Assembly (NCBI GenBank): GCA_000004985.1
Contig: GG738871.1
Origin: Naegleria gruberi
Lineage: Eukaryota
Reading direction: 5' to 3' (one strand)
DNA: 64,000 nt
Numbering within the stretch: the stretch's first letter is position 1; each line of letters opens with the position of its first letter. Below, in pieces: positions 3,633 through 62,600 of the stretch. Below the pieces are notes generated by a model, which was not told the origin of the DNA, made no database searches, and saw nothing but the letters and a program-made list of their open reading frames with translations. A program made the position numbers and the translations under genes.

Positions 3633-5120
3633 TCAGTATTTAATTTCTGAATTCAACAGTAAGTTTGACATACCTGTTCCATCAGTTACAATAGAAACAA
3701 ATCGGCAATCAAGTGGGTTAGTATTAGGAAAGAATAGTTGGATTGGAAGTAAAATAAAAAATGTCATTGCTGATAATTGAACAGCAATGCAGTAATGTTT
3801 TGCATTGCACTGGAGTGTAAAATTGCCTATGCCTATATCTGTTGGATTAGGAGTCCAGGTAATTGCTGTGGAAGTATACTGAGATAGAGCTTGATGAGTT
3901 GCTGTGTCACGATTTAATTGTCTGATATTGTTATTGAAATTGATATTTTGAGGGAAAAGTGAATTGATAGAACCATTCATAGGTGTTATTGGCATTCCTA
4001 TCATTGAATAATTGCTACTTCCAAATTGAAAATTGAACATGACTGTTGTTGGTATAGTTTGTGAGGATGATATTGAGCTGGAAGTGTTTGGTGGATTGGC
4101 GGATTCATTTCCTTTCTTCTTCTTTTGATCATTTTCCCAAACAATAATTAATTCGTGTTCTTTTCGTTTCTTCTCATTCTTCTTTCGTTCTTTTTCTAGT
4201 ATTTCTTGCTCCTTTCTTTGCTTTTTCTGTGCTATTCGTTCCTTTTCTATTCTACTCTTATCGAGCAGTCTAGAAAAAACGAATTGAGGAGTCAAGTTTG
4301 GGTTTAATTGGTAATCGAGTAAAAATTTCTGTAAATCCCGTAAATTTTCTTTGGCATTTTTCATCAATTTCAATTGATATGTCTGTATTTCTTGGGTTGT
4401 AAATTTCTTTTGCATACTTGATTTGTAGGAGGTAGATATTGTTATACAGGAGTCTAAGGTATTACTGAACTTCTTTAGTTTTGATCTAATGTGTGATACT
4501 TGAGTATTACTAAGAGTGAATGAAAATTCAAACTTTTTCTGGTAGAAATTTTTGATGAAAGAGTTAACAGAAGAACACAGATCACAATCACAATCAAACT
4601 CTGAGGGTTGTGAGAAGCAAATTGTTAGCGCTTTTCTATCATTGATGCACTTTTCTAAATACTCTATACTTGTTTTCATTAATCTTACCCAATTTTGTAA
4701 AGCACCATTTGTACAAAGAGACTGAAAATTATTTCTTACAAAGTAAGTGTCCAATATTTTAACAATGGTAAATATAACTTCATCCTTATCCATCATTAAT
4801 TCCCAAACCTCAATTAATTTGCTAATAGATTCATACTCTTTTGTATCAAATAAATTTGAAAAAATTGTTTCATGCTCCTCCTGTGTTTTCAATAATTTGT
4901 TTTCAATAATATATTTCCTAAATCCAGAATAGAAAAGTTGAACATCTTTGTTTTCAACATCTTGCTTATAATTTTCAAAATATGTAGATGGCTTTAAATT
5001 TGAAAACAGTACAGAGGGCTCAAATGTACTGTAACCATAATCTTGAATGAGCTGTAAGGATTTTGGGTAATCATTTTTCAGGTAGATGGGTATGAGACAC
5101 TGTGCAAACTCTCTTGTCAA
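3633..5120 (-). CDS. Hypothetical protein (about 495 aa) with a Lys/Glu-rich coiled-coil segment and a Ser/Asn-rich tail.
   Basis: Long ORF with a KKQRKEQEILEKERKKNEKKRKEHE stretch. It may start at a TTG/ATG near 5120. No family recognised. Its relation to the gene immediately upstream is unresolved. Confidence 0.4.
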   Translation of the reverse strand: MTREFAQCLIPIYLKNDYPKSLQLIQDYGYSTFEPSVLFSNLKPSTYFENYKQDVENKDVQLFYSGFRKYIIENKLLKTQEEHETIFSNLFDTKEYESISKLIEVWELMMDKDEVIFTIVKILDTYFVRNNFQSLCTNGALQNWVRLMKTSIEYLEKCINDRKALTICFSQPSEFDCDCDLCSSVNSFIKNFYQKKFEFSFTLSNTQVSHIRSKLKKFSNTLDSCITISTSYKSSMQKKFTTQEIQTYQLKLMKNAKENLRDLQKFLLDYQLNPNLTPQFVFSRLLDKSRIEKERIAQKKQRKEQEILEKERKKNEKKRKEHELIIVWENDQKKKKGNESANPPNTSSSISSSQTIPTTVMFNFQFGSSNYSMIGMPITPMNGSINSLFPQNINFNNNIRQLNRDTATHQALSQYTSTAITWTPNPTDIGIGNFTLQCNAKHYCIAVQLSAMTFFILLPIQLFFPNTNPLDCRFVSIVTDGTGMSNLLLNSEIKY

Positions 5121-5236
5121 GAATATATCACAAATAAAGAGACTATAATATGGGTCAGATTTCGTAGCATTCGATTCTATTATCGATCTAAAAGCCGGTA
5201 AAAAGAGTTCTGAATCGAATTATAAAGGGGGAAGAT

Positions 5237-7185
5237 TCAACACAACTTACCCTTATCGAAAGAATATACTACATCTCTCTGCTTTTCACAAAATCTATAA
5301 ATTTTTTCCATGCAATCAAAGGACTGAATTACAGGACTAGCTCTTTCGACAATAATTCTCATATCTTCCAAATTGAAATATTTCTCAAAAATATTTAAAT
5401 AATATGATAAATGATAAGTTTCCTTCTTCTTCAATATATCTACAACAAATGAAGCGTAAATATCTCTGAAAGTAGCAAACCCAAACTTATGCAATAATTT
5501 CTCAAATATTACCGATGAAATATTTTGGAAATTACACTTTTTAAGAAGAAAATCTTCAGCTAGCTCTTTGCTATCCAGCTCTATCAATACATCCAACATC
5601 TTCTCATGTTTTGTTCCTTTTACAGAAGAGTCCCATCCAAAAGAAGAAGTATTGAACCAAAAATCAGTAAACTGCTCATAAAAACTTTTCAAATATTGCT
5701 CACTTCCAATTTTTAGCAGATGTTTGAAATAGTGGAGTGTAAAGAAGAACCCCAAATTAAAGTAAGAGTAATCCTCATCTGGAAGAATAATCAAACACGT
5801 GGTTCTGTACCATTTTGATGATTGAGTTCCATAATTTCCTTCAAGAGAAAAAATTACATATTAAAAAAAATCAAATAAATACCTGTTTGATATTCAACGG
5901 ATTGCAATAGTTTCATATCATTAGCTCTTTCTTTTGGGAAGAATTCATTTAAATCTTGCGTTAGTTCGGCATAAATTGGCTCATTATTATAAAATATCTT
6001 TGAAATTTCAAAAGTAGCACCTTTTTCAAAATCTCCATCACTATATCCATCATTAACTCGTTTCGTGATAAATGCTGGAATAATTAAAATTTTCAAACAT
6101 GTGTCTTTTAAGGCAGAATAGATTTTGTAATCATTTCCTTTCAAATTTTCACACCCAAAAACTAGACTCTCTGATGTATAATCATGTTCCAATAAATAAA
6201 TTATAGATTTGTAGTAGAGATCGCCTTTCAACCATGAAATCAACTGCTGACTCAGCATTTCTAGATCATTTTCAATGTCTACAATGGGTAATGGTTGGTT
6301 GATATCATGGGTCGTGACAATAATATTATAAACTAGACAAGTTCTATATCCACTTGTCAAAGGCATTACTGCATGATCACAATCCGAATAGAATGAAATG
6401 AAATGGGCAGAGGTTGAAGCATCTTCGTCTGAATAATCAATTTCCCTTTCACTCGAATTATGTCTAATTTTAAAAGAACCTCCTTCATAGAGGGATGGTA
6501 AAATAATTGCCAAGGTGCATGTTTGTTGACATTCCTTTTCTTTGTGAAAATCAAAATGACCTCCTTTCTCGTATAATAATAATTTGTGCAATTTACATGG
6601 ACTTTGAACCACTTTCTTGTGTTTCTCAATTCCCAATCCACTTTTGATTTTTGAATTCAATAATAAATGCAATTCTTTCTGCCAGACTGGATTAGTAATT
6701 CTGAATTGGTGTGGTTCCAATTCGAATGAATTTCTCACTTGATCATGAATTGTTTCCTCACCCTTTCCAAATGGTGATTTCTTCCCAATTCGTATAATTT
6801 CATCAGCCTGTTCTTTGTAAATGATTGGCAATGCAATAGGTTTATATTTCTCTACATTCTCTTCAGTAATTATTAATTCAATTCCAGGCACTTTCATCAC
6901 ATCAGGAAGACGATCATAATAATAATAATTTCCTCCAACTGATGTAATATTTGTAAAGGTATTCTGCAGCCTTCCAAAAAGATCCTCCATATTGAAGGAA
7001 TTATCATGATCGGAATCACTTTCATTTGCTTGATCGGATGAATCTGTGTCATTTACTTCTTCAGTTTTAATTTCATTGGTTGCGTGATGTTCGTTTGTTT
7101 CTGCGTGAGAGGATGCAAGAGTTTCATTTTGCTCCATTTTTTGGTGGAAATTTATGCTCTTTCCCGCCAAGATAAACGTTGCCAC
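5237..7185 (-). CDS. 2OG-Fe(II) oxygenase of the prolyl-4-hydroxylase (P4Hc/PKHD-like) superfamily plus a C-terminal domain of unknown function. Exons are 5883..7185 and 5237..5838; the intron is 5839..5882 (44 nt).
   Basis: The core double-stranded beta-helix motifs are present: GGHFDFHKE (HxD), then SDCDHAVMPLTSGYRTCLVYNI (second His with Arg ten residues downstream), as in PHD/Ofd1-type hydroxylases. The intron runs GTATTT...CTTGAAG in phase 1. It joins ...VEYQT-G-NYGTQSSKWYR... in frame, and the exon lengths agree. Confidence 0.6.
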
Positions 7186-7546
7186 AGAGAAAGATAAAAA
7201 AATGTGGTGATATTATTTGAATGTTTGATAATGTTTAGATGGAGGTGTTTCTGCTTTTTCTCCATTATAAAATACTAAATATTGAAATATTGTTAATCAA
7301 ATATGATGAAATTAATAGTAACATTTGGAAACTTTGATCATCAGAAAACAAAATGTGATACTAATAGACAACTAGTAGTTGTTGGATAATCAATTTAGAG
7401 ATCTTCATTTCGGATGGAACAATAACCATCATGATGCATATAAAATTATCATCACATAATTAATTCCAAATCAGTACATTTTCATCGAAATGGATAAAAA
7501 CAAACGATTAGAACAAAGCAAACTAAAAAATTGAGTCAAAAGGATC
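7186..7546. promoter_or_regulatory. Intergenic region shared by two divergently transcribed dioxygenase genes; presumed bidirectional promoter.
   Basis: AT-rich 361-bp spacer between the start codons at 7185 (minus strand) and 7547 (plus strand). No specific motif was verified. Confidence 0.3.
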
Positions 7547-9298
7547 ATGTCTATTAACACCACTTTCAATCAAAAGACTACTCAAAGTGGAGAACCTCCA
7601 ATGATGATGAGAATGACAAATAGTAGTACACCACCACTAACACCAAAGAATTGCCTCCCTATTTTCGTCTACAATGATTATGGGAAATTAATTAGAGAGG
7701 AACAGCAACAACCTACTGATATTATTACTAATAACAATAATTCAATGATGAGATCTATGCCAACTACCAATAGATGGGAAACAAATCCACAAACACCATT
7801 AAGTGTTTCTCCTTTCCAACCACTTTTACCGATTCCAAATTTCTCTCATGCATTCATTGTGGGAAATTTGCCACCAAGTGTGTCAGTGAGGAGAAAGAAT
7901 AGGAAAATGTCAGAGAAACCAAAAAACAACTCTGCACCAAGTAAAATAATGCATCAATTAGAATTATCAGTATTGAATAATCAGAGAAGAATTGCACCAA
8001 AAGGACCTCTTGCTGATATTTCTAATATACAACTTCCTCAACAAGAATCAACAAATAAGAGCAATAACACAACACCTAAAAAACCAAGAATTAGGCAATT
8101 AATGTTAACAACTCCCCTTAGAGAAAGCCTTCAATCAAACCAATCGGCCAGAAGCAAATACATTGATGAAGAAGCAAATAATTATTCTATTAATGATAGT
8201 CCTGAAACAACAATTATTAAAACCAGCAATACAAAAGATAGTGAGCATAAGGCAGCGATGGCAACTAATTTGGGCTTATCTACTGATGATTTTGAGTGCA
8301 AACCATTCGAAACCACAACACTACCTTCCGTCATTGATAAGAATTATCTGGTGGTTGATAAGGAAGGATGTACACAATTAGCACTCCTTCCCAATCACAT
8401 CCCAACAAGTGTGTGTAAACTTATTGAGGTGAAGTGTAGGAAAGTTTCTAACTTGAGACATGCCTTAAAAATCCAAAAGGCATCATTTTACGTCAATTGG
8501 TGGACTAAAAGTCAGCCAATGGGCTATATGTGTAAAGATAACGAATCTGAAATTGGAAAAGTTGTCAATGAGATTGCAGAATTACTCTCTGATCATTGTA
8601 GAAATTTATTACGAATGTGCAATGAGAGAGTGTACAAGAAAATTAGTGAGCTGAAGGAAGACAAGTTTTTTGCACCTTGTATTTGTTTTAATATATTGGA
8701 ACATGATTTGGAGAGCAGAATTACGAAATTTCATCATGATAAAATGGATTATGGAGTTTCAGTTTTATTCTATTTTGGAGACTATAGTCGAGGAAATTTG
8801 AATGTTTTGGATGCAGGATCTTCATCAACCATTGTCACACGACCTGGTGATGCTGTAATATTGAGAGGAAATTACTACAAGCATTCTGTGCAAAACATTG
8901 AACCTGGGAACAATAAGGCAAGATACAGCATTGTATTTTTTGCTCATTCGACACATTTCCTTAAGAAAAAGTATGAACTCTCCCCTGCAGCTGCTAAGAA
9001 GGCATTCTTGGTTGACAATCCTGATTTTGTTTCCATAAAGAAGAGAAAGCAAGCCAGTTCCTCCTCAGATGTGAGTGTAAAGAAATCAAAGAAATCCACT
9101 GAAGATAATGTAGAATTCATTCAGACTCACACCTACTTGGGCAATGGTTACAAGTCTGGTCACAAGAATTATCAATATTATGTTAAATTTAATAATAGTG
9201 ATCAGAAGGAGTGGAAATCTTACGAAAGCTTGCCGAAGCAAGCAGTTGCCTCCTATTGGGTAAAATTCAAAAAGCTCAAATCTTTGAGCAATCAATAA
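7547..9298 (+). CDS. Tet/JBP-family 2OG-Fe(II) dioxygenase of the 5-methylcytosine oxidase type (Naegleria NgTet-like). It has a low-complexity N-terminal extension and a chromodomain-like C-terminus.
   Basis: The segment ...ALLPNHIPTSV...KFHHDKMDYGVSVLFYFGDYSRGNLNVLDAGSSSTIVTRPGDAVILRGNYYKHSVQNIEPGNNKARYSIVFFAHSTHF closely resembles NgTet1 as I recall it (KPHKDNLD...SLFYFGNF...VQPGDVLFFKGNEYKHVVANI...RIGLVYFAHKGSK). The HxD, distal His and Arg residues are all present. The C-terminus, NYQYYVKFNNSDQKEWKSYESLP, has a chromodomain-like aromatic pattern. It is a single exon. Confidence 0.7.
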   Translation: MSINTTFNQKTTQSGEPPMMMRMTNSSTPPLTPKNCLPIFVYNDYGKLIREEQQQPTDIITNNNNSMMRSMPTTNRWETNPQTPLSVSPFQPLLPIPNFSHAFIVGNLPPSVSVRRKNRKMSEKPKNNSAPSKIMHQLELSVLNNQRRIAPKGPLADISNIQLPQQESTNKSNNTTPKKPRIRQLMLTTPLRESLQSNQSARSKYIDEEANNYSINDSPETTIIKTSNTKDSEHKAAMATNLGLSTDDFECKPFETTTLPSVIDKNYLVVDKEGCTQLALLPNHIPTSVCKLIEVKCRKVSNLRHALKIQKASFYVNWWTKSQPMGYMCKDNESEIGKVVNEIAELLSDHCRNLLRMCNERVYKKISELKEDKFFAPCICFNILEHDLESRITKFHHDKMDYGVSVLFYFGDYSRGNLNVLDAGSSSTIVTRPGDAVILRGNYYKHSVQNIEPGNNKARYSIVFFAHSTHFLKKKYELSPAAAKKAFLVDNPDFVSIKKRKQASSSSDVSVKKSKKSTEDNVEFIQTHTYLGNGYKSGHKNYQYYVKFNNSDQKEWKSYESLPKQAVASYWVKFKKLKSLSNQ

Positions 9299-9357: not shown

Positions 9358-11541
9358 CTAGCTCAATATTAACTTGAGAACTTCATCATTTGATTTATCT
9401 GACAGAGTAGTCTTGAAAGTAAGCACTCCATTCAACAGTGAAATTACATAAAGAGTTTTTTCCTGTTCGCCTGTCTCTACAAACATAGAGTTAGATCTTG
9501 GATAGATATTAACAGCATTTGGACGTTCAGAGAGTTGTTTCCTAAATGTCCAAACTAGAGTTCCAGATTTGATATCAACACAATAGACCGATAGATAAGT
9601 ATCACCAAATAAATCTTCAGTTTCCACATCATCCGCCATCTCATCTTCATTGGCAGGTTCTTCCATTGTTTCCTCAGATTCATCCTCAATATCTACTACT
9701 TCTTCCTGTTGTTGTTGACGTTCTTTCAATGGCTTATGTACACATGCAAAGTAAATATTGCTTCCGTAGAGATAGTATGATTTGCAAGAAGTCTTGGCAG
9801 GTATTTCCAAAGGAACAGACCAAACAATAGATGGTGTTAAAACCTGCTCAACTACCTTCTCACGATTTCTAAAGTGTCTTTCATGTTCTACATTCACAGC
9901 AACTGATTTTAAGCATGAACATCCCTTCTTGTAAGGCAAATTGCCAAAAGTTGCCTTCTTTTCATTGGCTTGATAAGGTGAGAGGTAAACAAATCCACCC
10001 AAAGACTTTTCTTCATCCTCAAAAATTACAAGAGGCTCTCCTGAGGCAAGATTATTTCTATCCTTGTCAAAACCGGAAAAGATATTCTTCAATTGATCTA
10101 TATCAAATACACTCCCAGAGGCAAACAGATTGTTTGGAGTGACATGTAAATTGCCTGAGAAGGAATCTCCAACAGTAGTTCCAGTCATAGATAATAGAGA
10201 GAAATGACTCTCAGATCCTGTTAGCAGATATATTTGATTGTCATCTGTTACTATTGAGGATATTAATCGATCTACATTAGCAACATCCTTTAAGAGCCCA
10301 ACTTCGCGTAAAGTCATTCTATCCAGTATATGGACATTATGCTTTTTTGTCTTTACAATGTAAAACTTGTCGATAGGTAAGAGTGATGAGGTAGCCTCTT
10401 CTAATTCTTCCTTTGGGAGTTTTACACGAAGTGTTACGAAATGTCTACACACGCCTTTCATATCTAGCAAGGCAATATAATTTGGAAATTCTAATACAAT
10501 TTTTCTGGTTAAATGATCATAAAATACAAATAAAAGATTATCCTTAAAGAATTCCTTTCTTTCCCTCTCTACAACAGACTGAAATTCATAAGACTCCTCA
10601 AATTTTCTGGTATCATTGGCTTCATTTTGAAGCTCAATCATTCTTTGTTGCCATTCAGCACTATTAATTGCTACTTGTTGATTTTTCATAGTGTCATTGA
10701 ATGTTTGTCTCAATCGTTCCCTTCTTTCCTTGTCCTTGAGGGTCAAAAGCTCCCTCTTGAAAGTGCTAAAGGCCTTATCCTGTTGCAATTTTACCTCCAA
10801 AGGTTTGATTTGATTGAATGCATCTTCTGAGAGTGAAAGAACTGTTTGACCAGTTGGAACATCTACCACTTGAAAAGTATCCTTCCCTCTATTTGGATCG
10901 AATATAAATACATAATCAGTACCAGTGTAAACTCGTTTTTGTTCAGATCCAGACTTGTTGAAAATCTCAAACCTTTCATGTATGTATGGAGAATGAATTG
11001 AAGTCATTTCTTTCAATGAGGCAATTGTATTTGGCAATGTATAAATCACCTTGCTTTGCAAAATATCAAAACATGATTTTCCATCCTTTAAAAAGGTATA
11101 TCTGTCTCTATTCTTGATACTTCCCTTCAAACACATTTGATTCCAAGACTTTGATACTAATCGACATGTTTGAATTTCCTCCAAGGTAAGAAAAGCCAAT
11201 GACGTGCTGATACAATCTTCAACAGTCATAGATACAAACTCTGATGAAGGCTTTTCACCCATAACCATAAATTGAAGTTTTCTTCGTTTGAGACTTCTCA
11301 GAGTAATATCATTGGTCAAGACTTTTCCAGAGCAAATAATTTTAGTTCTTGATGGTGGTATCCCAAAGTCCTGCTCCAATTCTTTCTTGATGGTTTGTAT
11401 GCTGGTATTTTCATCCAAGTCTAGAGTACATTTGGTTTTCTTACTCAGAATGTTGAAAGATACATTCACTATACTATTATTATTATTGGAAATCATGATT
11501 CTCTTATTAATTTGAACTTGTTGAAGATGTATGATGTACAA
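9358..11541 (-). CDS. Ubiquitin-like domain plus F-box protein with a large C-terminal region, possibly a beta-propeller. The real start is probably the Met at MISNNNN.
   Basis: The ubiquitin-like fold shows in KCTLDLDENTSIQTIKKELEQDFGIPPSRTKIICSGKVLTNDITL (compare ubiquitin [22 protein letters not shown]). The F-box-like segment is SLAFLTLEEIQTCRLVSKSWNQMC. Confidence 0.5.
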   Translation of the reverse strand: MYIIHLQQVQINKRIMISNNNNSIVNVSFNILSKKTKCTLDLDENTSIQTIKKELEQDFGIPPSRTKIICSGKVLTNDITLRSLKRRKLQFMVMGEKPSSEFVSMTVEDCISTSLAFLTLEEIQTCRLVSKSWNQMCLKGSIKNRDRYTFLKDGKSCFDILQSKVIYTLPNTIASLKEMTSIHSPYIHERFEIFNKSGSEQKRVYTGTDYVFIFDPNRGKDTFQVVDVPTGQTVLSLSEDAFNQIKPLEVKLQQDKAFSTFKRELLTLKDKERRERLRQTFNDTMKNQQVAINSAEWQQRMIELQNEANDTRKFEESYEFQSVVERERKEFFKDNLLFVFYDHLTRKIVLEFPNYIALLDMKGVCRHFVTLRVKLPKEELEEATSSLLPIDKFYIVKTKKHNVHILDRMTLREVGLLKDVANVDRLISSIVTDDNQIYLLTGSESHFSLLSMTGTTVGDSFSGNLHVTPNNLFASGSVFDIDQLKNIFSGFDKDRNNLASGEPLVIFEDEEKSLGGFVYLSPYQANEKKATFGNLPYKKGCSCLKSVAVNVEHERHFRNREKVVEQVLTPSIVWSVPLEIPAKTSCKSYYLYGSNIYFACVHKPLKERQQQQEEVVDIEDESEETMEEPANEDEMADDVETEDLFGDTYLSVYCVDIKSGTLVWTFRKQLSERPNAVNIYPRSNSMFVETGEQEKTLYVISLLNGVLTFKTTLSDKSNDEVLKLILS

Positions 11542-13847: not shown

Positions 13848-14990
13848 ATGTTCAAAGGTTACTCTTCCATTCAAAATCACTTTCTCAAGGACGTTGATTC
13901 CTATCCACTCCAAACACAATACGATCCACAGGTACCATGGATCGTAACAGAAAAGATTCACGGATCAAACTTTAGTTTTGTAGTGAGTCTTGTAAAGGAT
14001 GATGCTGCATCAATTGATGATAATAATTTACAAATTCAGGTGGCAAAACGTACGGAAATTTTGGCAGATAATGATCCGTCTTATTATCCAAAGGCTGTTC
14101 GATCAGTTCGTGAATTATATGATGAAAAGATGAAATTGTTATTTAAGAATTTGGCTCTTGATTTGGAAAAGAAGAGAAATGTAAAACTTGTTAGTTTGAG
14201 TGTTTTTGGTGAATTATTTGGTGGTAATTATCCACATAAGGATGTAAAGAATGTTGGTGATAGAGCTCCGATTCAGAGACATGTGTATTATTGTACAGAT
14301 TTTGATTTTTATGTATTTGATATCTTTGTTTTTACAAAGAGTGATGATCCTAATGAAAAGAGATTGAATTATTTCCTTTCCTATGATGATATGGTGGAAC
14401 AAGTGAAAAAAACTGGTTTGGATTGTTATGCAAGAGAATTATTTAGAGGTAAATTGGAAGAATGCTTGAATTATGACAGTGTATTTGATTCTGTCATTCC
14501 TTCCACAATCTATGGTTTACCAGACATGCCTCATCACACCAATATTTGTGAAGGTATCATTATTAAGCCACTTATTGATATGAGGACTGATAAAAATGAT
14601 AGAATGGTTATCAAGAAGAAGAATGATAACTTTATGGAAAAAATTGGTCAAAAAGACAAGGTCAGAAAGGAAAGACTAGTAAAACAAAATACTGGTAAGA
14701 AATTCATTGATGATAAATCAGAACAAGCTATGAGTGATGTCCTCTCCTACATGAATGAAAATAGACTGGAAGGTAACATTTCAAAACTAGGTGACATTTT
14801 CAATTTCCCAAAAATTAGGGAAAGTTGCGTCTATTTACTTGCCCAAGATACTTTGAAGGACTATAGAGAGGAGAATTCTGAAGTGTGGGATCAACTTCCT
14901 AAGGAAGATCGTAAAGCAATCTCTGGTGCCTTACCTGCAATTGCTAAACGTTTTGTTGAGGAATATGTCAGTAAGAATAAACAAAATTAA
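13848..14990 (+). CDS. ATP-dependent RNA ligase of the Rnl2/REL-like nucleotidyltransferase family (380 aa).
   Basis: The motifs sit in the expected order. Motif I is TEKIHGSNF (the KxHGxN lysine-adenylate site typical of T4 Rnl2 and kinetoplastid REL1). The motif III region is VSLSVFGELFGG. Motif IV is ICEGIIIKP (EGxxxK). Motif V is VIKKKN. The C-terminal domain of about 150 aa is Lys-rich and unassigned. Confidence 0.65.
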   Translation: MFKGYSSIQNHFLKDVDSYPLQTQYDPQVPWIVTEKIHGSNFSFVVSLVKDDAASIDDNNLQIQVAKRTEILADNDPSYYPKAVRSVRELYDEKMKLLFKNLALDLEKKRNVKLVSLSVFGELFGGNYPHKDVKNVGDRAPIQRHVYYCTDFDFYVFDIFVFTKSDDPNEKRLNYFLSYDDMVEQVKKTGLDCYARELFRGKLEECLNYDSVFDSVIPSTIYGLPDMPHHTNICEGIIIKPLIDMRTDKNDRMVIKKKNDNFMEKIGQKDKVRKERLVKQNTGKKFIDDKSEQAMSDVLSYMNENRLEGNISKLGDIFNFPKIRESCVYLLAQDTLKDYREENSEVWDQLPKEDRKAISGALPAIAKRFVEEYVSKNKQN

Positions 14991-30409: not shown

Positions 30410-33400
30410 ATGCGTGCTCTTCAAGTTTTGTTTTGCATAGCCTTGTTGATGGTGATGCTAGTAGATAATTCTTATTCCATTTACTCTAACTCTGCTTCTG
30501 TTTGTTCATGCTCTGGGAGTTGCCCATCCAGTTTTGGACAATTGACATATGATACTACCAATTCTGTGTTCTATACTAGAGGAGATACCAGTATTTATTC
30601 CTGCTCTAAAACACAAACCACAGGTAACAGTATTTCCAGTCTTGTTGGTAGTGTTCCATCGGTTGGTGATAATGTGGTTTTTACCACAGTACAAAGCAAA
30701 GGGGTTGTAATTTATGATCAATATAATGACGGGACAGAACAAGTTGTGACTTATTACATTGATGATACCTCCAGCGTAATCGATAATATTACCTTTACAC
30801 CTGGTGCAGTAAACCTCAAATCTGGAGATGGTAAGTTTTTTTAAAATGTTAATAACAATGTTGACATTTGACAATCAAAGTAATCTTGCTTTCCGATAGT
30901 ACCAACAATGAAATCAATTCTATTCAGATTGGAATTGGTACCCCAACCTTGTTATTTTCTGCCAATGCCCCTGTAAAGGATGTGGTTTTTTCTACAGATA
31001 TCTTGTTTGTAGGTCTGGAAAATCAAGTAGTTCTCTATAATCCTACTACTTTATTAAATATTGATACAACATTTTCAGGAGAAACTTTTGTTAGCATTCT
31101 TTATATGAGTGGTGTTGTGAATGATAAGGTATGTTTTGAAATGATGTGTTATTACAATAATGTATTAGATTTATCTTGTGGACAGTATCTCTGCTTCCAG
31201 TTTTGCAATTAGAAGAATATCTTTTTCTGGATCACATGAAACAGCAACTATTAAAACTATTTATACAACCACTTCTTCCATTAGTGGTATTTATGCAGTT
31301 AGTGATTCTGAAGTTTATTTCATAGAAGGCACGGAAATTAGAAAGTTACAATTCGATTGCACTGCCGGAGAAGTAGCACCAATTTGTGAAAATTGCCCAA
31401 CAGGCTACAGTTCTAGCTCACCTTTTGCAAGTTGTTTCCCTGTTTGCACAGGTGATTGTAATAATAATGGAGTATGTGTTGCTCCTGAGGTTTGCTCCTG
31501 TAATGCAGGTTTTAATGGAAGCAAGTGTGAAAACACAATTCCATTTTGTGGAGGTATTGCTGGAAACGAAACCAATGTTTGTAATAGTAGAGGTGTTTGT
31601 GTTTCCACTAATTTATGCGAATGTTATGACAGTAATAGTTATGGTGGAAACTTGTGCGAAACTGTAAAATGTTTTGGAAAGCTCAGTACAGATATTTTAT
31701 CTGTTTGCAGTGGTAATGGAACTTGTGATGCAGTTGACTTTTGTAATTGTGATGCTACTCACGGAGGAAGTAATTGTGATATTGTGAAATGTAATGGAAC
31801 CTTGGCAAATGAGACTTCAGTTTGTTATGGTCATGGTAAATGCATTAATGTAGATCTTTGTGACTGTAATTCAACTCACTGGGGTGGTGTATTTTGTGAA
31901 ACACCAAAATGTAATGGAATTCTAGCAACAGATACAAATGTTTGTAATTATCAAGGAGTTTGTTCAGGAGCTGACTTGTGTGCTTGTAATTCAACATATG
32001 GCGGTCAATTCTGTGAAATTCCAAAATGTAATGGAACAATGCAAGGTGATAATTCAGTTTGCTCAGGACATGGTTCATGTGTTGGTGTTGACCTTTGTAA
32101 TTGTAATTCAACTCACTGGGGAGGTAAATTCTGTGAAATTCCAAAATGTTTTGGAGTATTAGCCAATGAATCTAATGTTTGTTCAGGACATGGTTCGTGT
32201 ATTGGTGCTGATTTGTGTTCCTGTAATTCCACATATTGGGGAGACGAGAACTGTCAAACAGCAAAATGTAATGGTATTTTAGCAACAGATGCAAGTGCTT
32301 GTAATTATCAAGGAGTTTGTTCAGGAGCTGACTTGTGTGTTTGTAATTCAACATATGGCGGTCAATTTTGCCAAGTACCTAGATGCAATGGAACAATGCA
32401 AGGTGATAATTCAGTATGTTCAGGACATGGTTCTTGTGTTGGTGTTGACAAATGTAATTGTAATTCAACATCACTGGGGAGGTCAATTCTGTGAAATTCC
32501 AAAGTGTTTTGGAGTATTAGCCAATGAATCTAATGTTTGTTCAGGACATGGTTCGTGTATTGGTGCTGATTTGTGTTCCTGTAATTCCACATATTGGGGA
32601 GATGAAAATTGTCAAACAGCAAAATGTAATGGTATTTTAGCTACTCAAACAAATAGTGTTTGTTATGGACATGGTTCTTGTGTAGATGCCGATGTTTGTA
32701 ACTGTAATTCCACATATTGGGGTGGAGAATTCTGCAAATATCCAAAATGTTTTGGAATCTTATCCACAGAAGCAAATGCTTGTTCGGCACCAAACCAAGG
32801 TTTATGTGTTGATGCAGACACTTGTGCTTGTAACTCAACTTATTGGGGAGATGAAAAGTGCCAAACATTCAAGTGTAACAATATTCTTTCCACGTCAGAC
32901 TCTGTTTGTTATGGTCAAGGAGTGTGTGTAGCTGTAGATACTTGCGTTTGTAACTCAACATATGGAGGCCAATTTTGTCAAACACCAAAATGTAATGGTA
33001 CTTTGGCCGGGGATAACTTAGTATGTTCAGGACATGGTTCTTGTGATGGAGTTGACAAATGTAATTGTAATTCAACATATTGGGGAGGTCAATTCTGTGA
33101 AATTCCAAAATGTTTTGGAGTATTAGCCAATGAATCTAATGTTTGTTCAGGACATGGTTCATGTATTGGTGCTGATTTGTGTTCCTGTAATTCCACATAT
33201 TGGGGAGATGAAAATTGTCAAACAGCAAAATGTAATGGTATTCTGTCAACACAAACAAGTACTGTTTGCTACGGTCATGGTTCTTGTGTAGATGCCGATG
33301 TTTGTAATTGTAATTCCACATATTGGGGTGGAGAATTCTGCAAATATCCAAAATGTTTTGGAATCTTATCTACCGATTCTTCAACTTGTTCATTCCATGG

Positions 33401-36107
33401 CTTGTGTATTGATGCTGATTTGTGTTCATGTAACTCAACCCATTGGGGAGGTGAAAAGTGTGACATTCCAAAATGTAATGGAATTTTAGCAACAGATACA
33501 AATGTTTGTAATTATCAAGGAGTTTGTTCAGGAGCTGACTTGTGTGTTTGTAACTCAACATATGGAGGCCAATTTTGTCAAACACCAAAATGTAATGGTA
33601 CTTTAGCAGGTGATAGTTCAGTATGTTCAGGACATGGTTCATGTGACGGAGTTGACAAATGTACTTGCAACTCGACATATTGGGGAGGTCAATTCTGTCA
33701 AACTCCAAAATGTGATGGTATCTTAGCTTCCAATACTTCGACTTGTAATGGACAAGGTTCCTGTATCAATGCTGATGTTTGTATTTGTAATGATTACAAT
33801 CTTTGGGAAGGTAAATTCTGCCAAGTACCAATGTGTTACGGTAAACCACAAGGTGGATCTTCCACATGTAATAATGGAAATGGTACTTGTACATCTCCAA
33901 ATCACTGTTCCTGTAACTCTGGATATGTAGGCCCAGAATGTGAATATCCAGTTTGTTTCAATGTACCTAGCAATGACTCTTCAGTGTGTAACAATCGAAA
34001 CGGTACATGTATTTCACCTGATAAGTGTGCTTGTGAAAGTGGGTGGACTGGCGATAGTTGTCAAACACCAATCTGTTTCTCAATTTTGGGTAACTCTTCA
34101 GCTGTTTGTAGTCAAAGAGGTAGTTGTGTAGCTCCAAATTTTTGTGTTTGTAAGGATCATTATTATGGAGACGCATGTCAAAGAACTACTTGTTATGGTA
34201 TTGCTGATGATTCTAGTTCAACATGTTTTGGTCACGGTTCTTGTAGTGATTACAATACTTGTAATTGTTCATCAGGTTATGGTCCAGACAATTATTGTGA
34301 GCATCCAATATGTTATGGTTATTTAGCAAATGATACTAGAGTTTGTAACAATTCACGTGGTGTCTGTTTGAGTCCTGACGAATGTAGACCTTTGGACCCT
34401 GTATGTTTCGAAAAGGCAAAGAACGACAGTAATGTTTGCAGTGGTCATGGTAAATGTGTTGATTGGGATTATTGTGTTTGTAACACTTCAGATTATTATG
34501 GAGATCAATGTCAATATTGGAAATGTTTTACAAAGAATTACAACGCCTCAAATGTTTGTAATAACGGAAACGGTACCTGCTCATCTGTTAATAATTGTGT
34601 TTGCAACAGTGGATGGTATGGAAATGAATGTACAGTTCCAATGTGTAATGGAATTCTTGGTAATTCATCCCTCGTTTGTAACAATGGAAATGGTACCTGC
34701 TCCAAACCAGGTGCATGTCAATGTAATACTGGATATACAGGATCTGATTGTTCCATTCCAATTTGTTATGACAAATTAGCAAGTGACACAAGTAATGTTT
34801 GTTCAGGAAAGGGTTCTTGTGTTGCTAAGGATACTTGCTCTTGTCAAAACAAGTATACAGGTTATGAATGTCAATATGCCACATGTTATGGAGTTTCATC
34901 CAATTCTACAAGTGTCTGTAGTGGTAATGGTACATGTAACGGAGTTGATTCTTGTAATTGTTTATATGGTTATGGAGATTCTCAATGTAATGTTTTCAAA
35001 TGTTCCAATATTTTGGCTACTAGTAATAGCGTGTGTAGTGGAAGAGGTAAATGTTATGGAATTGATAAGTGTCAATGTGATACTGGTTACTATGGTCCTA
35101 ATTGTCAATATACCACTTGTAATGGTATTGCTGCTAACGACACTTCTGTATGTAATAGCAATGGTACCTGTACTGCTTATGAAACTTGTTCTTGCTCTGC
35201 TGATTGGTATGGCAAAAATTGTGACATTACTAAGTGTTACAATATCTTCTCAAATGATACAAGTGTTTGCAGTAGTAAGGGTAAATGTATCCTCAAGGAC
35301 AAGTGTGTCTGTACAGACATTAATTATGGTGGTTCTCAATGTGCCGATCCATACTGTTTTGGTTATTTGGCCGGAACTGTTGGAGTTTGTAGTGGAAATG
35401 GTCAATGTTTGGGAGTTAACTCTTGTAATTGTAATACTGGTTTCCTTGCCTCAAAGTGTCAATTCAAAACAATTAGTGGTATCTCTCTCACGTTCAATGC
35501 CTCTGCTGATTATGCCAATGAAACTCTCACCACCAAGGCAACTTTGTCAATTACTGACTCTTCATTCAGTACCTATTATGCTTCTACTAGCTTGAATGCT
35601 ACATTCTCATTTGTTTTCAATGGAGTTACATCAACATTCGACAAGATTCTCCCAGCCGGATCCAACAATGTTGAATTCATTCTTCCATTCTTCTACACTC
35701 AAAAAGGAACTGTTACCAGCTCTGTAACTCTCAAATTCACTGAAAGTACCACAACCATTACTGCAGGTCAAGCAACTGGTTCATCTTTAACCATTCAACA
35801 AAGAGTAATACCAACACCAACACCTACACCTATCAAATCATCACCAAAACCACAAGTTTCTCCAGCCAAATCCACCAACACTGTCAATCCAAAGGCCTCC
35901 ACTTCAACAACCACTAAGAGTGATTCCAATGTTGGAGGTGCCATTGCAGCTGGAGTCATTGTTCCATTAGTTGTAATTGGTGGAGGTGGTATCACTGCTG
36001 CCATCATTGCTGTTGTTGTCATTATGAAGAAGAAGGCCGCCACAGCAGCTGCCAGAGAACTTACCTATGCCACTCACTACGATGTTGAATTGGCTGAAGG
36101 TTACTGA
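30410..36107 (+). CDS. Giant type-I membrane glycoprotein. It has a signal peptide and N-terminal NHL/beta-propeller-like repeats. About 35 tandem cysteine-rich EGF/tenascin-like modules follow, then a Thr/Pro-rich stalk, a transmembrane helix and a short tail. Exons are 30410..30830 and 30881..31128, and a third runs from 31169 to 36107. One frame disruption lies near 32468.
   Basis: The signal peptide is MRALQVLFCIALLMVMLVDNSYS. Introns 30831..30880 and 31129..31168 are both GT-AG and frame-consistent. The repeating unit is PKCNGxLxxDxxVCxGHGxCxGxDxCxCNSTxWGGxFCE, six Cys per 39-40 aa. The C-terminus reads TPTPTPIKSSPKPQVSP..., then GGAIAAGVIVPLVVIGGGGITAAIIAVVVIM, then KKKAATAAARELTYATHYDVELAEGY. 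ORF 31178..32494 ends prematurely (..CNCNSTSLGRSIL*). The +1 frame (ORF 32289..36107) continues the same repeat consensus. Confidence 0.6.
31650..33720. repeat. Tandem array of units about 117-120 bp long, encoding 39-40-aa six-cysteine modules inside the surface-protein gene.
   Basis: Near-identical DNA units begin ccaaaatgtaatgg... or ccaaaatgttttgg... and recur with about 120-bp spacing, for example at 31901, 32021, 32141, 32261 and so on. The opposite-strand ORFs listed in this interval are antisense artefacts of the repeat. Confidence 0.7.
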
Positions 36108-59638: not shown

Positions 59639-62600
59639 ATGGTTACTGGAGGCAATCTTTCAGTATCTTGCTTTAAACAAGATGTAAAATCAGTTAGAGG
59701 CCTCATTGTCCTTCTCTTGTTGATTCTCTGTTTGACAACAATTGAGAAATGTTGTGGATATTACTACACAATGAATACTGTTGGTACCTTCACTTCTGGA
59801 ACCACCTTGTATCAAATGGACAAGTCCAAATTCTTCGCTAACAGATTCTACGTAGCAACAAGTGGAGGTCTTCAGTATTTCACTGTATCAAGTGGTGTGG
59901 CAAATCCAAGTAATTCTTATGTGTATAGTGGTGGGTTTCAAACTACCAGTATGGCAAATGTTGTTGTCAGAAGTACATCATCAAGTAAAGATGATGTTTT
60001 TTCTGGTACCATTAACACCTCCACTTGGAGGTATGGTTCAATAGCCAGTTCAACCACTACTGGTAATTCACTCACCAGTTGTGGCGTTATTGTTGCTGGT
60101 GTAAAACTCGATGCAAGCTCTACAACTTTTTCTGTGATTGGCAATGGTGTTGTGGGTACATTAACAATGACAACAGGTGGTAGTGCATCTTGTTCTGCAG
60201 TTACCTCATTTACAGGAGTTTCTGGCACAAGTACCACGCCATCTACTGATGGCACAGGTAGCGCAGCTACTGTTTACTCTAGTGGTACTCATGACATTAC
60301 CAAAAATTCAACATCTGGTGTAAGTATGAGAAAATTCAATTAATTAGATCTAACAACTGGCAGGTTTATTATTTTACTGAGGATTCAAAGATTAGAAAGG
60401 TTGTTTCAACTACTATCACAACTCTGGTAGGAGGAACTACTGGTACAGTGACAGATGGTACTCTCTCCTCTGCTACAGTTAAAAATCCAAGTTTCATGTC
60501 CATCTTGGGTGCAGGTGTAAGTTTTATTGCATTGTTATGATATATTAAACTGTTAACAGCTTGTATTTTCGGATACTGGTAGTAATAGAATTAGAGTTTT
60601 GGATACAGCCAATGAAGAAGTTGTTACTATTGCTGGTGGTGGCTCAACTACCCCATCAGGTACTGCTTCACTATCTGGTGCAGCAACAGGTTTTTCTTTA
60701 ACTAGCCCAAGAGGCATTTATGTGGACACTGATGACAGTATTTATTTTGTTGAAGGAATTTATGTTAGAAAGCTTGTCTATTCTTGTGAAGCAAATGAAA
60801 TTTATCAAGCAGGCTCATTCCCACCATGTGCTTGTAATACTACTGCTGGTTATGTGAGATCTGGAACTTCTTGCGTACCTACCTGTTCCAATTGTAATGT
60901 CAATCAAACATGTACTGGTCCAGAAACTTGTTCTTGTAAGAGTGGATATTCAGGAACAGATTGTTCTGCTTTTACCTGTTTTGGTGTAGCTCAAGATTCT
61001 ACATCTGTTTGTAATTCTAAAGGATATTGTGTTGCACCTGACACGTGTATATGTAGTGATACCTCCACTTTCTTTGGGTCAAATTGTAATGTGACTTATT
61101 GTAATTCTATTCCATCAACGAGTGGTAGTGTTTGTTCAGGACATGGAAGTTGTACTGATTATAATACTTGTACTTGTAGTGATACCAATTCATGGACAGG
61201 ATCTGATTGTGGAACACCTGTATGTGCAGTTGTGAGTGGAGGTGTTTGTTCTGGAAGAGGTAGTTGTACAGCTCCAAATATTTGCACTTGTAATGAACCA
61301 TCAAAATATGGTGGATCTTCATGTGAAATTCCAAAATGTAATGGAACACTTCAAGGCAATTCTGGTGTTTGCAATGGAAGAGGTTCTTGTATTGATGTTG
61401 ATACTTGTCAATGCACTGTTCCAACCTCTTGGGGTGGTTCATTCTGTGAAAAACCATACTGCTCTGGAATTTTACAAGGTGCAGCTGGTGTTTGTTCAAA
61501 TAGAGGAGTTTGTTCATCTCCTGATTCTTGTGTTTGTAATGAACAAACAAAGTATGGTGGTTCAAATTGTCAACTTGTCAAATGTGGAGGTTATTTGGAA
61601 ACAGACTCTGCTGTTTGTAACAAGAATGGTTCATGTATTGCTGTTGATACTTGTTCCTGTAATTCAAATTATGGTGGTTCAGATTGTCAATATCCAAAGT
61701 GTAATGGCATTGCTTCGAATAGTGGTAGTGTTTGTAATTCACAAGGATCATGTGTTGCACCAAATGTTTGTGTCTGTAATTCAAATTATGCTGGACCATT
61801 ATGCGAATATCCAAAATGTAATGGCGTAGCTTCCAATGATGCAAGTGTTTGCAATTCGAATGGAACTTGTACTGGTGTTAATACTTGTGTTTGTAATGTT
61901 AACTATACAGGATCATATTGTCAATATCCAAAATGTAATGGAATATCTTCCAATGATGCAAGTGTTTGTAATAACAAAGGTGGTAATTGTATTGCACCAA
62001 ATGTTTGTTCATGTAATTCAAGTTATACTGGTCAATTCTGTCAATTCCCAAAGTGTAATGGTATTGGATCCAATGATGCAAGTGTTTGTAATGCAAATGG
62101 TACTTGTATTGGAATTAATGTTTGTTCATGCAATTCAAATTATGCTGGTCCATATTGTCAATATCCAAAATGTAATGGTATTGCTTCAAATAGTGGTAGT
62201 GTTTGTAATTCACAAGGATCATGTGTTGCACCAAATGTTTGCGCCTGTAATTCAAATTATGCTGGTACATATTGTGATAAACCAAGATGTGGAACCTTTT
62301 ATAAGGGAGATGCTTCTGTTTGTAATTCGAGAGGTAGTTGTGATGCTGTTGATAGTTGTACTTGTAGTGATACATCTTCTTGGGGTGGTAATTTGTGTCA
62401 ATATCCAAAATGTAATGGTGTTCTTTCAAATATTGGAACTGTTTGTAGCAGTAGAGGTACTTGTCAATCTCCAAACAATTGTTCATGCACTGATCCAAAT
62501 TCATATGGTGGTTCATATTGTGAAAAAGCAAAATGTTATGGAATTCTTCAAGGAGATTCAAATGTTTGCAGTGGACATGGTACTTGTAGTGGTGTGAATC

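What the first reader, a model, noticed from the sequence alone, without database searches (positions are those of the whole stretch)
5237..9298. Head-to-head pair of 2OG/Fe(II) dioxygenase genes, one P4H-like and one Tet/JBP-like, sharing a 361-bp promoter region
Two unrelated members of the 2-oxoglutarate/Fe(II) dioxygenase superfamily are transcribed divergently from a single short spacer (7186..7546). The minus-strand gene has the prolyl-4-hydroxylase-type HxD...H-x9-R signature plus a C-terminal domain of about 200 aa that I cannot assign. The plus-strand gene is a Tet/JBP enzyme. Co-regulation from a bidirectional promoter would suggest a shared role, for example on chromatin or nucleic-acid substrates. 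I cannot show that.
Basis: partly seen in the sequence, partly recalled or inferred. Interest (0 to 1): 0.55.

Follow-up and report, generated by a model that had tools for sequence, protein, structure and literature searches.

The report
Two neighbouring dioxygenase genes in Naegleria
Two unrelated iron/2-oxoglutarate dioxygenase genes of the amoeba Naegleria gruberi, a Tet-like DNA-base oxidase and a large prolyl-hydroxylase-like protein, sit back to back, but nothing beyond that adjacency suggests they work together.

Summary
The window is Naegleria gruberi NEG-M. The plus-strand gene (7547..9298) is exactly the annotated protein XP_002676528.1. It is a paralogue of the solved NgTet1 enzyme, has all Fe/2OG ligands, and carries a divergent chromodomain-like tail.

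It has three exons (7137..5883, 5838..5251, 5209..3633) and encodes 1139 aa, exactly XP_002676615.1. The stop at 5237 lies inside a 41-nt intron.

This protein belongs to an uncharacterised family found as a stand-alone gene in at least 530 bacterial genomes and patchily in eukaryotes. The family has four parts:
- a conserved domain with no solved structural relative;
- a helical region;
- a CxCxxC...H module.

All 85 aligned homologues have HxD[ST]EK, whereas this gene has a 2-residue deletion giving H198-K-E200. H255 and R265 are intact.

The head-to-head arrangement recurs only in a 98.85%-identical strain. It is absent from every other locus examined, and about 30% of neighbour pairs in the window are divergent. 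The best reading is an ordinary, species-specific adjacency of two independent genes.

The parts
5883..7137 (-). P4H-like gene (NAEGRDRAFT_79941), exon 1, aa 1-418 plus the first base of codon 419
   Evidence: ATG at 7137 and GT donor at 5882. The spliced product is identical to XP_002676615.1.
5839..5882 (-). Intron 1 (44 nt, GT..AG)
   Evidence: Removing it joins the two frames and rebuilds the family-invariant TGN motif (G419, N420) across the junction.
5251..5838 (-). P4H-like gene, exon 2
5210..5250 (-). Intron 2 (41 nt, GTAAGT..CAG).
   Evidence: The junction 'FDK|ELFLPAF' matches L001 '...LFLPIF', and the model exactly matches the annotated protein.
3633..5209 (-). P4H-like gene, exon 3 (to the stop codon). 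It encodes the helical region, the CxCxxC...H module, a K/E-rich stretch and a lineage-specific C-terminal extension.
   Evidence: Colinear with the 750-1050-aa homologues through the Cys motif. The extension is conserved in L001 ORF 8251..9525.
6292..6840 (-). PHD/P4H-like double-stranded beta-helix domain (aa about 100-282)
6538..6546 (-). H198-K-E200: the metal motif, with Glu where the family has Asp after a 2-residue (6-nt) deletion
   Evidence: All 85 homologues have HxD[ST]EK and the window protein has HK--EKE.
6343..6375 (-). H255 ... R265 (second Fe ligand and 2OG-binding Arg, H-x9-R)
   Evidence: Invariant in the 8-sequence alignment; H in 83 and R in 84 of 85 homologues.
5747..6291 (-). 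Family-specific alpha/beta domain 2 (aa 283-449, spans intron 1). Invariant or nearly invariant residues: H318, Y320, K333, D336, G419, N420; E377 and Y429 are invariant only in the 8-sequence alignment.
4338..4655 (-). C-terminal module (aa about 800-905) with C821-x-C823-x2-C826 ... H854, a putative zinc site
   Evidence: These four residues and one Lys are invariant in a 17-sequence alignment. No Pfam or PDB sequence relative was found.
7138..7546 (.). 409-bp intergenic spacer between the two start codons
   Evidence: It aligns with 5 mismatches and 4 gap columns over 410 columns in strain contig L002. No repeats or terminal inverted repeats were found.
7547..9298 (+). Tet/JBP paralogue gene (NAEGRDRAFT_68183, XP_002676528.1), single exon, 583 aa
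8318..8986 (+). Tet/JBP catalytic domain (aa about 258-480): H396-x-D398, H446, R459. Base-contact equivalents: R391, D401, V463, F465, H467. C380 stands for NgTet1 A212 and K321 for N147.
   Evidence: phmmer alignment to 4lt5/5cg8, 12-sequence alignment, residue roles from PMC4678852, numbering.
9095..9274 (+). Divergent chromodomain-like C-terminal region (aa about 517-576)
   Evidence: It aligns colinearly with the Pfam-significant Chromo domain (aa 461-514) of the N. gruberi paralogue XP_002682154.1. On its own it gives only a weak hit (cpSRP43 chromodomain, E 0.66) and no Pfam Chromo hit.

Best explanation
These are two independent, already annotated N. gruberi genes that happen to be divergent neighbours in a compact genome.

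Gene A (7547..9298, plus strand) is one of the Naegleria Tet/JBP paralogues. By homology to NgTet1, it most likely binds Fe(II) through H396/D398/H446 and 2-oxoglutarate through R459. It would flip a 5-methylpyrimidine (5mC, possibly T) into a pocket formed by R391, D401, F465 and H467 and hydroxylate the methyl group. Its basic low-complexity N-terminus and chromodomain-like tail would direct it to chromatin.

Gene B (7137..3633, minus strand, 3 exons, 1139 aa) belongs to an uncharacterised multidomain family that occurs as a stand-alone gene. The family consists of a PHD/P4H-like 2OG-oxygenase domain, a conserved family-specific alpha/beta domain, a helical region and a CxCxxC...H module. 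By fold it most resembles protein prolyl hydroxylases and PiuC/Tpa1-type enzymes, so a hydroxylase acting on a protein or small-molecule substrate is the best guess. In this particular gene the iron-binding Asp is deleted and a Glu takes its place (HxE), so catalytic competence is uncertain.

Shown: gene models, family membership, motif state, lack of conserved linkage. Inferred: substrates, activity, chromatin targeting.
For: Organism and exact identity of both proteins to annotated N. gruberi entries.

Tet gene:
- NgTet1 hit at E about 1e-18 over aa 266-478.
- H396, D398, H446 invariant and R459 nearly invariant across 12 relatives.
- Residue roles taken from PMC4678852.
- A paralogue carries a genuine Chromo domain at the same position.

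P4H-like gene:
- 88 homologues, most carrying PF13640.
- Colinear alignment over all three exons.
- HxE deletion unique among 86 sequences.
- 49 of 57 highly conserved positions retained.

Independence of the two genes:
- No sequence similarity between them.
- The L001 orthologue matches the window only across the P4H-like gene, and its divergent neighbour is an LRR gene.
- No Tet in the Willaertia loci L003 and L004, or in the locus L010 of a paralogue from a near-identical N. gruberi strain.
- No P4H-like gene next to the Tet relatives in L012 and L013.
- Among 80 bacterial loci, no neighbour family recurs in more than 5, and none has a Tet hit.
- No Tet in 3 viral contigs.
- The pair recurs only in a 98.85%-identical strain.
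- 7 of 23 neighbour pairs in the window are divergent.
- The other genes in the window are functionally unrelated.
Against: - Two 2OG oxygenases as immediate neighbours is not a common coincidence. My rough estimate, which assumes 50-100 such genes among about 15,700 (a figure from memory, not measured here), is a few percent for any of the Tet paralogues.
- No expression data could be examined.
- No orthologous locus of this particular Tet with intact upstream sequence was available from another species.
Confidence: 0.8

Rival explanations
1. The two genes form a co-regulated functional pair. A shared bidirectional promoter drives a Tet DNA-base oxidase together with a hydroxylase that acts on chromatin, on nucleic acid or on the Tet pathway.
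For: - Immediate divergent adjacency with a 409-bp spacer.
- Both need Fe(II), 2OG and O2.
- The Tet has a chromodomain-like tail.
Against: - Linkage is absent in every relative examined outside the same species.
- The family is a stand-alone gene in bacteria, with no conserved partner.
- The DSBH domain is closest to protein hydroxylases, not to nucleic-acid oxygenases.
- Divergent pairs are about 30% of neighbours in the window.
- The P4H-like copy here has lost the canonical Asp.
Confidence: 0.07
2. The minus-strand gene is a catalytically dead or decaying member of its family (a pseudo-dioxygenase, or a gene on its way to becoming a pseudogene). If so, the 'pair of dioxygenases' is in effect one enzyme plus a relic or scaffold.
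For: - It is the only one of 86 sequences lacking the HxD Asp, and the nearly invariant M205 and F206 positions are also changed.
- It fails Pfam PF13640 entirely, while homologues score 22-36 bits.
- Its closest orthologue (L001, 55% identity) has lost the GEETxxDxxR motif, differs at 15 of 57 conserved positions, and carries a frameshift at the TGN junction and an in-frame TAG.
- A canonical paralogue (HRDTEK) exists in a near-identical N. gruberi strain (L010, from the same metagenome as L002).
Against: - The 3420-nt reading frame is intact across three exons.
- 49 of 57 conserved positions, H198, H255, R265 and all four Cys/His positions are kept.
- HxE is a working facial triad in other 2OG oxygenases, for example clavaminate synthase and the JmjC KDM4 enzymes (established knowledge, not tested here).
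- The L001 defects could be assembly errors in a single Logan contig.
Confidence: 0.3
3. The pair arose by inverted duplication of one dioxygenase gene, or arrived together on a mobile element or viral insertion.
For: Both genes share the DSBH fold. The P4H-like family has a patchy distribution suggestive of horizontal transfer.
Against: - No detectable sequence similarity between the two proteins, and they belong to different structural clades.
- No terminal inverted or direct repeats around the pair.
- GC content is uniform across the window.
- Both genes have typical short Naegleria introns or none.
- No viral contig carries both.
Confidence: 0.01

Closest known systems
NgTet1 (Naegleria gruberi Tet-like 5mC dioxygenase, PDB 4LT5 / 5CG8)
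   Same: Same species and same Tet/JBP catalytic domain, about 30% identity over about 210 residues. The Fe triad, the 2OG-binding Arg and the base contacts R224, D234, V293, F295 and H297 are all conserved.
   Different: - 583 aa against 321 aa, with a 250-aa low-complexity N-terminus and a chromodomain-like C-terminus.
- NgTet1 N147 (contacts O2 of the base) is K321 here.
- A212 of the hydrophobic pocket is C380. The A212V mutant limits the product to 5hmC (PMC4678852), so iterative oxidation may differ here (inference).
- Activity is untested.
N. gruberi XP_002682154.1 (NAEGRDRAFT_46005), a Tet paralogue with a C-terminal chromodomain
   Same: Similar architecture of a Tet/JBP domain followed by a C-terminal chromo-type domain. 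33% identity in the catalytic domain, E 7e-32.
   Different: Its chromodomain passes the Pfam threshold (28.8 bits). The window protein's does not, and the aromatic-cage positions are only partly aromatic (F, F, then S/D, by eye). The paralogue also has a large insert in the DSBH domain.
Prolyl-hydroxylase-type 2OG oxygenases (PHD2/EGLN1, Dictyostelium PhyA, Pseudomonas PPHD, viral and algal P4H) and PKHD-type enzymes (PiuC/YbiX, Tpa1, OGFOD1)
   Different: - Only 9-18% identity, with no sequence-level PDB hit even using a family profile.
- Roughly 850 additional residues: domain 2, a helical region, a Cys/His module and an extension.
- HxE replaces HxD.
- The substrate is unknown. PF13640 also includes small-molecule hydroxylases such as HilA (PMC3684760), so 'prolyl hydroxylase' is not established.
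Uncharacterised 750-1050-aa 'Fe2OG dioxygenase domain-containing' proteins of Verrucomicrobiota, Bacteroidota, Planctomycetota, fungi, Willaertia, Bemisia and an octocoral
   Same: True homologues over the DSBH domain, domain 2, the helical region and the CxCxxC...H module.
   Different: The window protein has the Asp-removing deletion, a degenerate 'GSPHTL' segment, and a roughly 250-aa C-terminal extension shared only with its closest orthologue.

Membership tests
Tet/JBP dioxygenases (plus-strand gene) | Significant sequence similarity to an experimentally characterised member | tested here: met
   phmmer against the PDB: NgTet1 4lt5_A E 2.4e-18 and 5cg8_A E 1.3e-18, covering aa 266-478.
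Tet/JBP dioxygenases (plus-strand gene) | Pfam PF12851 (Tet_JBP) above the gathering score | tested here: not met
   18.7 bits against a cut-off of 34.9 for the isolated domain, and no hit for the full protein. An NgTet1-like relative (P0105) also scores only 15.9 bits, so the Pfam model is insensitive to the Naegleria clade.
Tet/JBP dioxygenases (plus-strand gene) | HxD...H iron triad and 2OG-binding Arg | tested here: met
   H396, D398, H446 and R459 align with NgTet1 H229, D231, H279 and R289. H396, D398 and H446 are invariant and R459 nearly invariant (>=90%) in 12 relatives.
Tet/JBP dioxygenases (plus-strand gene) | 5-methylpyrimidine pocket residues (NgTet1 R224, D234, F295, H297, N147) | tested here: inconclusive
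   R391, D401, F465 and H467 are conserved. N147 is replaced by K321 and A212 by C380.
Tet/JBP dioxygenases (plus-strand gene) | Oxidation of 5mC or T in DNA | not testable with these tools
   Requires an enzyme assay.
Chromodomain (C-terminus of the Tet protein) | Pfam PF00385 hit and an aromatic cage | tested here: inconclusive
   No Pfam hit and only a weak cpSRP43 chromodomain match at E 0.66. The region does align colinearly with the significant Chromo domain of paralogue P0102. Cage positions were judged by eye only.
P4H/PHD-type 2OG-Fe(II) oxygenases, PF13640 (minus-strand gene) | Pfam PF13640 above the gathering score | tested here: not met
   No hit even at E<=1 for exon 1 or at E<=0.1 for the full protein. 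Of the six homologues rescanned here, four pass (28.6-35.6 bits; cut-off 27) and two score just below (22.1, 26.0); precomputed PF13640 hits are listed for most of the 88 homologues. Weak direct hits for the window protein: PADLOC '2OG' E 2e-4 and NCBIfam PRK05467 E 0.003.
P4H/PHD-type 2OG-Fe(II) oxygenases, PF13640 (minus-strand gene) | Double-stranded beta-helix fold closest to prolyl-hydroxylase-type enzymes | tested here: met
   [not shown]
P4H/PHD-type 2OG-Fe(II) oxygenases, PF13640 (minus-strand gene) | HxD...H facial triad | tested here: not met
H198 and H255 are present. The Asp is deleted and the motif reads H198-K-E200. Whether HxE is functional was not tested.
P4H/PHD-type 2OG-Fe(II) oxygenases, PF13640 (minus-strand gene) | Basic residue binding the 2OG C5 carboxylate about 10 residues after the second His | tested here: met
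   R265 = H255+10; invariant in the 8-sequence alignment and present in 84 of 85 homologues.
P4H/PHD-type 2OG-Fe(II) oxygenases, PF13640 (minus-strand gene) | Prolyl (or other) hydroxylase activity on a defined substrate | not testable with these tools
   No characterised member of this multidomain family was found.
Functionally coupled divergent gene pair (bidirectional promoter module) | Linkage conserved in related genomes | tested here: not met
   The two genes occur together only in L002, the same species at 98.85% nucleotide identity. The pairing is absent in L001, L003, L004, L010, L012, L013, 3 viral loci and 80 bacterial loci.
Functionally coupled divergent gene pair (bidirectional promoter module) | Correlated expression from shared regulatory elements | not testable with these tools
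   No RNA-seq or transcription-start data were available. No paper mentions either accession.

The most novel reading that the evidence does not exclude
The large PHD-like family to which the minus-strand gene belongs could be a new class of 2OG-dependent modifier of nucleic acid or chromatin. The family combines a DSBH domain, a conserved domain with no solved structural relative, a helical region and a CxCxxC...H putative zinc module. It is found in hundreds of bacteria and patchily in eukaryotes. On this reading, Naegleria has placed one copy under a shared promoter with a chromodomain-bearing Tet so that the two act on the same chromatin regions.
Probability: 0.04. Interest if true: 0.6.

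Novelty: new member of a known kind. Interest (0 to 1): 0.18.

Why it matters
As stated, the finding matters little. Both genes are already annotated 'predicted proteins' of N. gruberi. Naegleria Tet paralogues are a known group. The adjacency shows no sign of being more than coincidence.

Three by-products have modest value:
- The P4H-like gene is a member of a large, entirely uncharacterised, stand-alone multidomain 2OG-oxygenase family. One of its conserved domains has no recognisable solved relative, and it carries a putative CCCH zinc module. That family is a reasonable target for biochemical study.
- This copy is a natural HxD-to-HxE deletion variant, which could show how tolerant the facial triad is to such a change.
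- The Tet paralogue differs from NgTet1 at two pocket positions (N147 to K, A212 to C) and carries a chromodomain-like tail. This is relevant to the open question of what Naegleria Tet enzymes do in vivo, given that 5hmC was not detected in the N. gruberi genome (PMC12344493).

Tried and rejected
- **Homologue searches with the Tet protein.** The word-indexed search, run with the full protein and with the catalytic part, returned only a 99% identical metagenome copy. Relatives were found only with the exhaustive HMMER search.
- **Metagenome scans.** Searches for close relatives of the Tet and of the P4H-like exon 1 found nothing.
- **Locus look-up.** The N. gruberi Tet protein is not on record in the contig index, so the annotated neighbourhood could not be listed. 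Identity was established by exact-sequence look-up instead.
- **Structure library.** afdb50 was not available.
- **Family profiles against PDB sequences.** The P4H-like profile hit only designed helical repeats in the helical region, and the Cys/His module hit nothing significant.
- **Operon context in bacteria.** Three loci examined by hand and then 80 loci clustered showed no recurrent neighbour. The apparent 48-locus and 9-locus clusters are antisense shadow ORFs inside the gene itself.
- **Weak Imm30 hit.** The Pfam hit at aa 717-782 (21.8 bits, cut-off 27) was treated as noise.
- **Mobile element or duplication origin.** Rejected: no repeats and no similarity between the two proteins.
- **Literature.** The Hashimoto 2014 and Pais 2015 papers are not held. 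No paper cites either accession, and the PF13640 literature has nothing on this family.
- **Sigma-70 promoter scan.** Not run, because it does not apply to a eukaryote.

Full report
**Source and gene models.** The window is AT-rich (about 33% GC) and comes from Naegleria gruberi NEG-M. Five ORF products match annotated N. gruberi proteins exactly, all on one 417,575-bp contig.

The plus-strand ORF 7547..9298 (583 aa) is identical to XP_002676528.1 (NAEGRDRAFT_68183, 'predicted protein').

The minus-strand gene is not 5237..7185. The two mechanical ORFs 5854..7185 and 5237..5794 are in different frames and are joined by a 44-nt GT..AG intron (5882..5839). Just before the apparent stop at 5237 there is a GTAAGT donor. 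Removing a 41-nt intron (5250..5210) continues the frame into ORF 3633..5120.

The resulting three-exon product (7137..5883, 5838..5251, 5209..3633) is 1139 aa. It is identical from the first residue to the last to XP_002676615.1 (NAEGRDRAFT_79941, 'predicted protein'). That is independent confirmation of the model.

Homology supports both junctions. The family-invariant TGN motif spans junction 1. The 750-1050-aa homologues run colinearly through all three exons as far as a CxCxxC motif that lies in exon 3.

The start codon is ATG 7137, so the spacer is 409 bp (7138..7546) rather than 361 bp.

**The Tet gene.** phmmer against PDB sequences hits NgTet1 (4lt5, 5cg8) at E about 1e-18 over aa 266-478. 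Pfam's Tet_JBP model gives only 18.7 bits for the isolated domain, below its cut-off of 34.9. It scores an NgTet1-like relative no better, so that failure reflects the Pfam model and not the protein.

An exhaustive HMMER search of 1.84 billion representative proteins found only 15 relatives. Among them are the N. gruberi paralogues XP_002682154.1, XP_002676954.1 and XP_002668594.1.

In a 12-sequence alignment, H396, D398, D401 and H446 are invariant and R459 is nearly invariant. These correspond to NgTet1 H229, D231, D234, H279 and R289. The NgTet1 base contacts R224, V293, F295 and H297, described in PMC4678852, correspond to R391, V463, F465 and H467. Two pocket positions differ. N147 is K321 here, and A212 is C380. 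The A212V mutant of NgTet1 stops at 5hmC.

The C-terminal 60 residues align colinearly with the Pfam-significant chromodomain of paralogue XP_002682154.1. On their own they are not significant.

The N-terminal 250 residues are N/S/P/T-rich with basic patches.

My inference is an active Tet-type 5-methylpyrimidine dioxygenase with chromatin-targeting appendages.

**The P4H-like gene: the oxygenase domain.** A homologue search returned 88 proteins: two from Willaertia magna, many from fungi, some from Bemisia tabaci and an octocoral, and bacterial proteins. Most carry PF13640. The window protein itself gets no PF13640 hit. It gives only weak hits to generic 2OG models (PADLOC E 2e-4, NCBIfam PRK05467 E 0.003).

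**The P4H-like gene: the metal motif.** In all 85 aligned homologues it reads HxD[ST]EK. The window protein alone reads HK--EKE. A 2-residue deletion removed the Asp, so the next conserved Glu now sits two residues after His198.

H255 and R265 (H-x9-R) are invariant in the 8-sequence alignment and present in 83 and 84 of the 85 homologues. Overall the protein keeps 49 of 57 highly conserved positions.

**The P4H-like gene: the rest of the protein.**
- **A helical region** follows. A family profile hits only designed helical repeats.
- **A C-terminal module** has invariant C-x-C-x2-C ... H ... K (C821, C823, C826 and H854 here). I read it as a putative zinc site. It has no Pfam or PDB relative.
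- **A further 250 residues or so** (a K/E-rich stretch plus a conserved terminal block) are shared only with the closest orthologue.

**Is the pairing meaningful?** The two proteins show no pairwise similarity (best E 0.75), and no repeats flank them, so they are not a duplication or a mobile unit. Linkage was tested wherever DNA could be fetched.

| Locus | What it carries | Result |
|---|---|---|
| L002 (metagenome contig, 98.85% nt identity, same species) | Exon-1 start, spacer, Tet, UBL/F-box gene | Same arrangement. This is trivial conservation. |
| L001 (closest orthologue, 55% aa identity, 33% GC) | P4H-like gene | Matches the window only across the P4H-like gene. Its divergent neighbour is an LRR gene. 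|
| L003, L004 (Willaertia magna) | P4H-like homologues | No Tet |
| L010 (38% paralogue, same N. gruberi-like metagenome as L002) | P4H-like paralogue with canonical HRDTEK | Lies beside ACBP and ribosomal-protein genes |
| L012, L013 | Tet relatives | No P4H-like gene. L012 has only 136 bp upstream, so it says little. |
| 3 IMG/VR contigs | P4H-like relatives | No Tet |
| 80 bacterial loci, out of at least 530 matches | P4H-like relatives | No Tet hit. Once antisense shadow ORFs are set aside, no neighbour family recurs in more than 5 loci. |

The family is therefore a stand-alone gene.

Within the window, ORFs of at least 250 aa give 24 gene proxies and 23 neighbour pairs, of which 7 are divergent. 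The other genes are functionally miscellaneous: a DEAD helicase, EGF-repeat proteins, a ZIP transporter, a calpain, an amine oxidase and a mitochondrial RNA ligase.

Expression could not be examined.

**Is the P4H-like copy active?** This is open.

For decay or inactivity:
- the unique loss of the Asp;
- the complete failure against PF13640;
- the state of the L001 orthologue, which has lost the GEETxxDxxR motif, differs at 15 of 57 conserved positions, and carries a 1-nt frame break at the TGN junction and an in-frame TAG.

Against:
- the reading frame here is intact over 3420 nt;
- the other ligands and the Cys/His positions are kept;
- HxE triads work in other 2OG oxygenases (general knowledge, not tested here).

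**Verdict.** The family assignments are essentially right. The suggested functional coupling is unsupported, and the synteny evidence argues against it. The adjacency is best explained as a species-specific coincidence in a gene-dense genome.

Both genes are already annotated, although uncharacterised. The Tet is a new, untested member of a known kind. The P4H-like protein is an atypical member of a large uncharacterised family that deserves study for its own sake, not because of its neighbour.

Noticed in passing
L001 7495..7510 and 8225..8240 (Logan SRR21279712 contig): The closest orthologue of the P4H-like gene (55% identity) has no intron at the first junction. It has one nucleotide where the window has a Gly codon, which breaks the frame, and an in-frame TAG in the third segment. 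It has also lost the GEETxxDxxR motif. It may be a pseudogene, or the contig may contain errors.
   Followed up: partly
[not shown]
   Followed up: yes
window 4338..4655 (-), aa 800-905: A C-terminal module has invariant C-x-C-x2-C ... H ... K across bacteria, fungi, insects and heteroloboseans. It is a putative zinc-binding site and is not covered by Pfam or by any PDB sequence.
   Followed up: partly
window 3633..4340 (-), aa about 905-1139; L001 8900..9525: A K/E-rich stretch and a roughly 130-aa terminal block (NFQFGSS ... FVSIVTDGTG) extend the protein beyond all other homologues. They are conserved only in the L001 orthologue. No family was assigned.
   Followed up: no
L017-L096 (GTDB genomes), L014-L016 (IMG/VR): The P4H-like family is widespread in bacteria, with at least 530 matches mainly in Verrucomicrobiota, Bacteroidota and Planctomycetota and also in Acinetobacter. 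It is always a stand-alone gene of about 750 aa. Eukaryotic members are patchy (heteroloboseans, some fungi, whitefly, an octocoral), which suggests horizontal transfer.
   Followed up: partly
window 9358..11496 (-): The gene convergent with the Tet gene has only 59 bp between the two stop codons. It encodes a ubiquitin-like domain plus an F-box (XP_002676616.1, 'UBL domain-containing protein'). The orthologue locus L001 has an F-box-LRR-like gene as the divergent neighbour of the P4H-like gene. This is probably coincidence, given how many F-box genes Naegleria has.
   Followed up: no
L010 668..3541 (ENA ERZ929261): The metagenome that yielded the 99%-identical N. gruberi-like contig also carries a 38%-identical paralogue of the P4H-like gene with the canonical HRDTEK motif. 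N. gruberi therefore probably has both a canonical and an HxE copy.
   Followed up: partly
window 7547..8317 (+), aa 1-257 of the Tet protein: A long N/S/P/T-rich low-complexity N-terminus with basic patches (RRKNRK, KKPRIRQ) swamped the word-indexed homologue search.
   Followed up: no
window 13848..14990 (+); 31178..36107 (+); 60599..62965 (+): An annotated mitochondrial RNA ligase gene and two large teneurin-like EGF-repeat genes lie elsewhere in the window. They are unrelated to the finding.
   Followed up: no
protein cluster of XP_002676615.1: The 90%-identity cluster holding the full 1139-aa protein is represented by a 495-aa metagenomic fragment (exon 3 only). That is why the homologue search with the N-terminal 618 aa did not return the protein itself and made the gene look unannotated at first.
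   Followed up: yes
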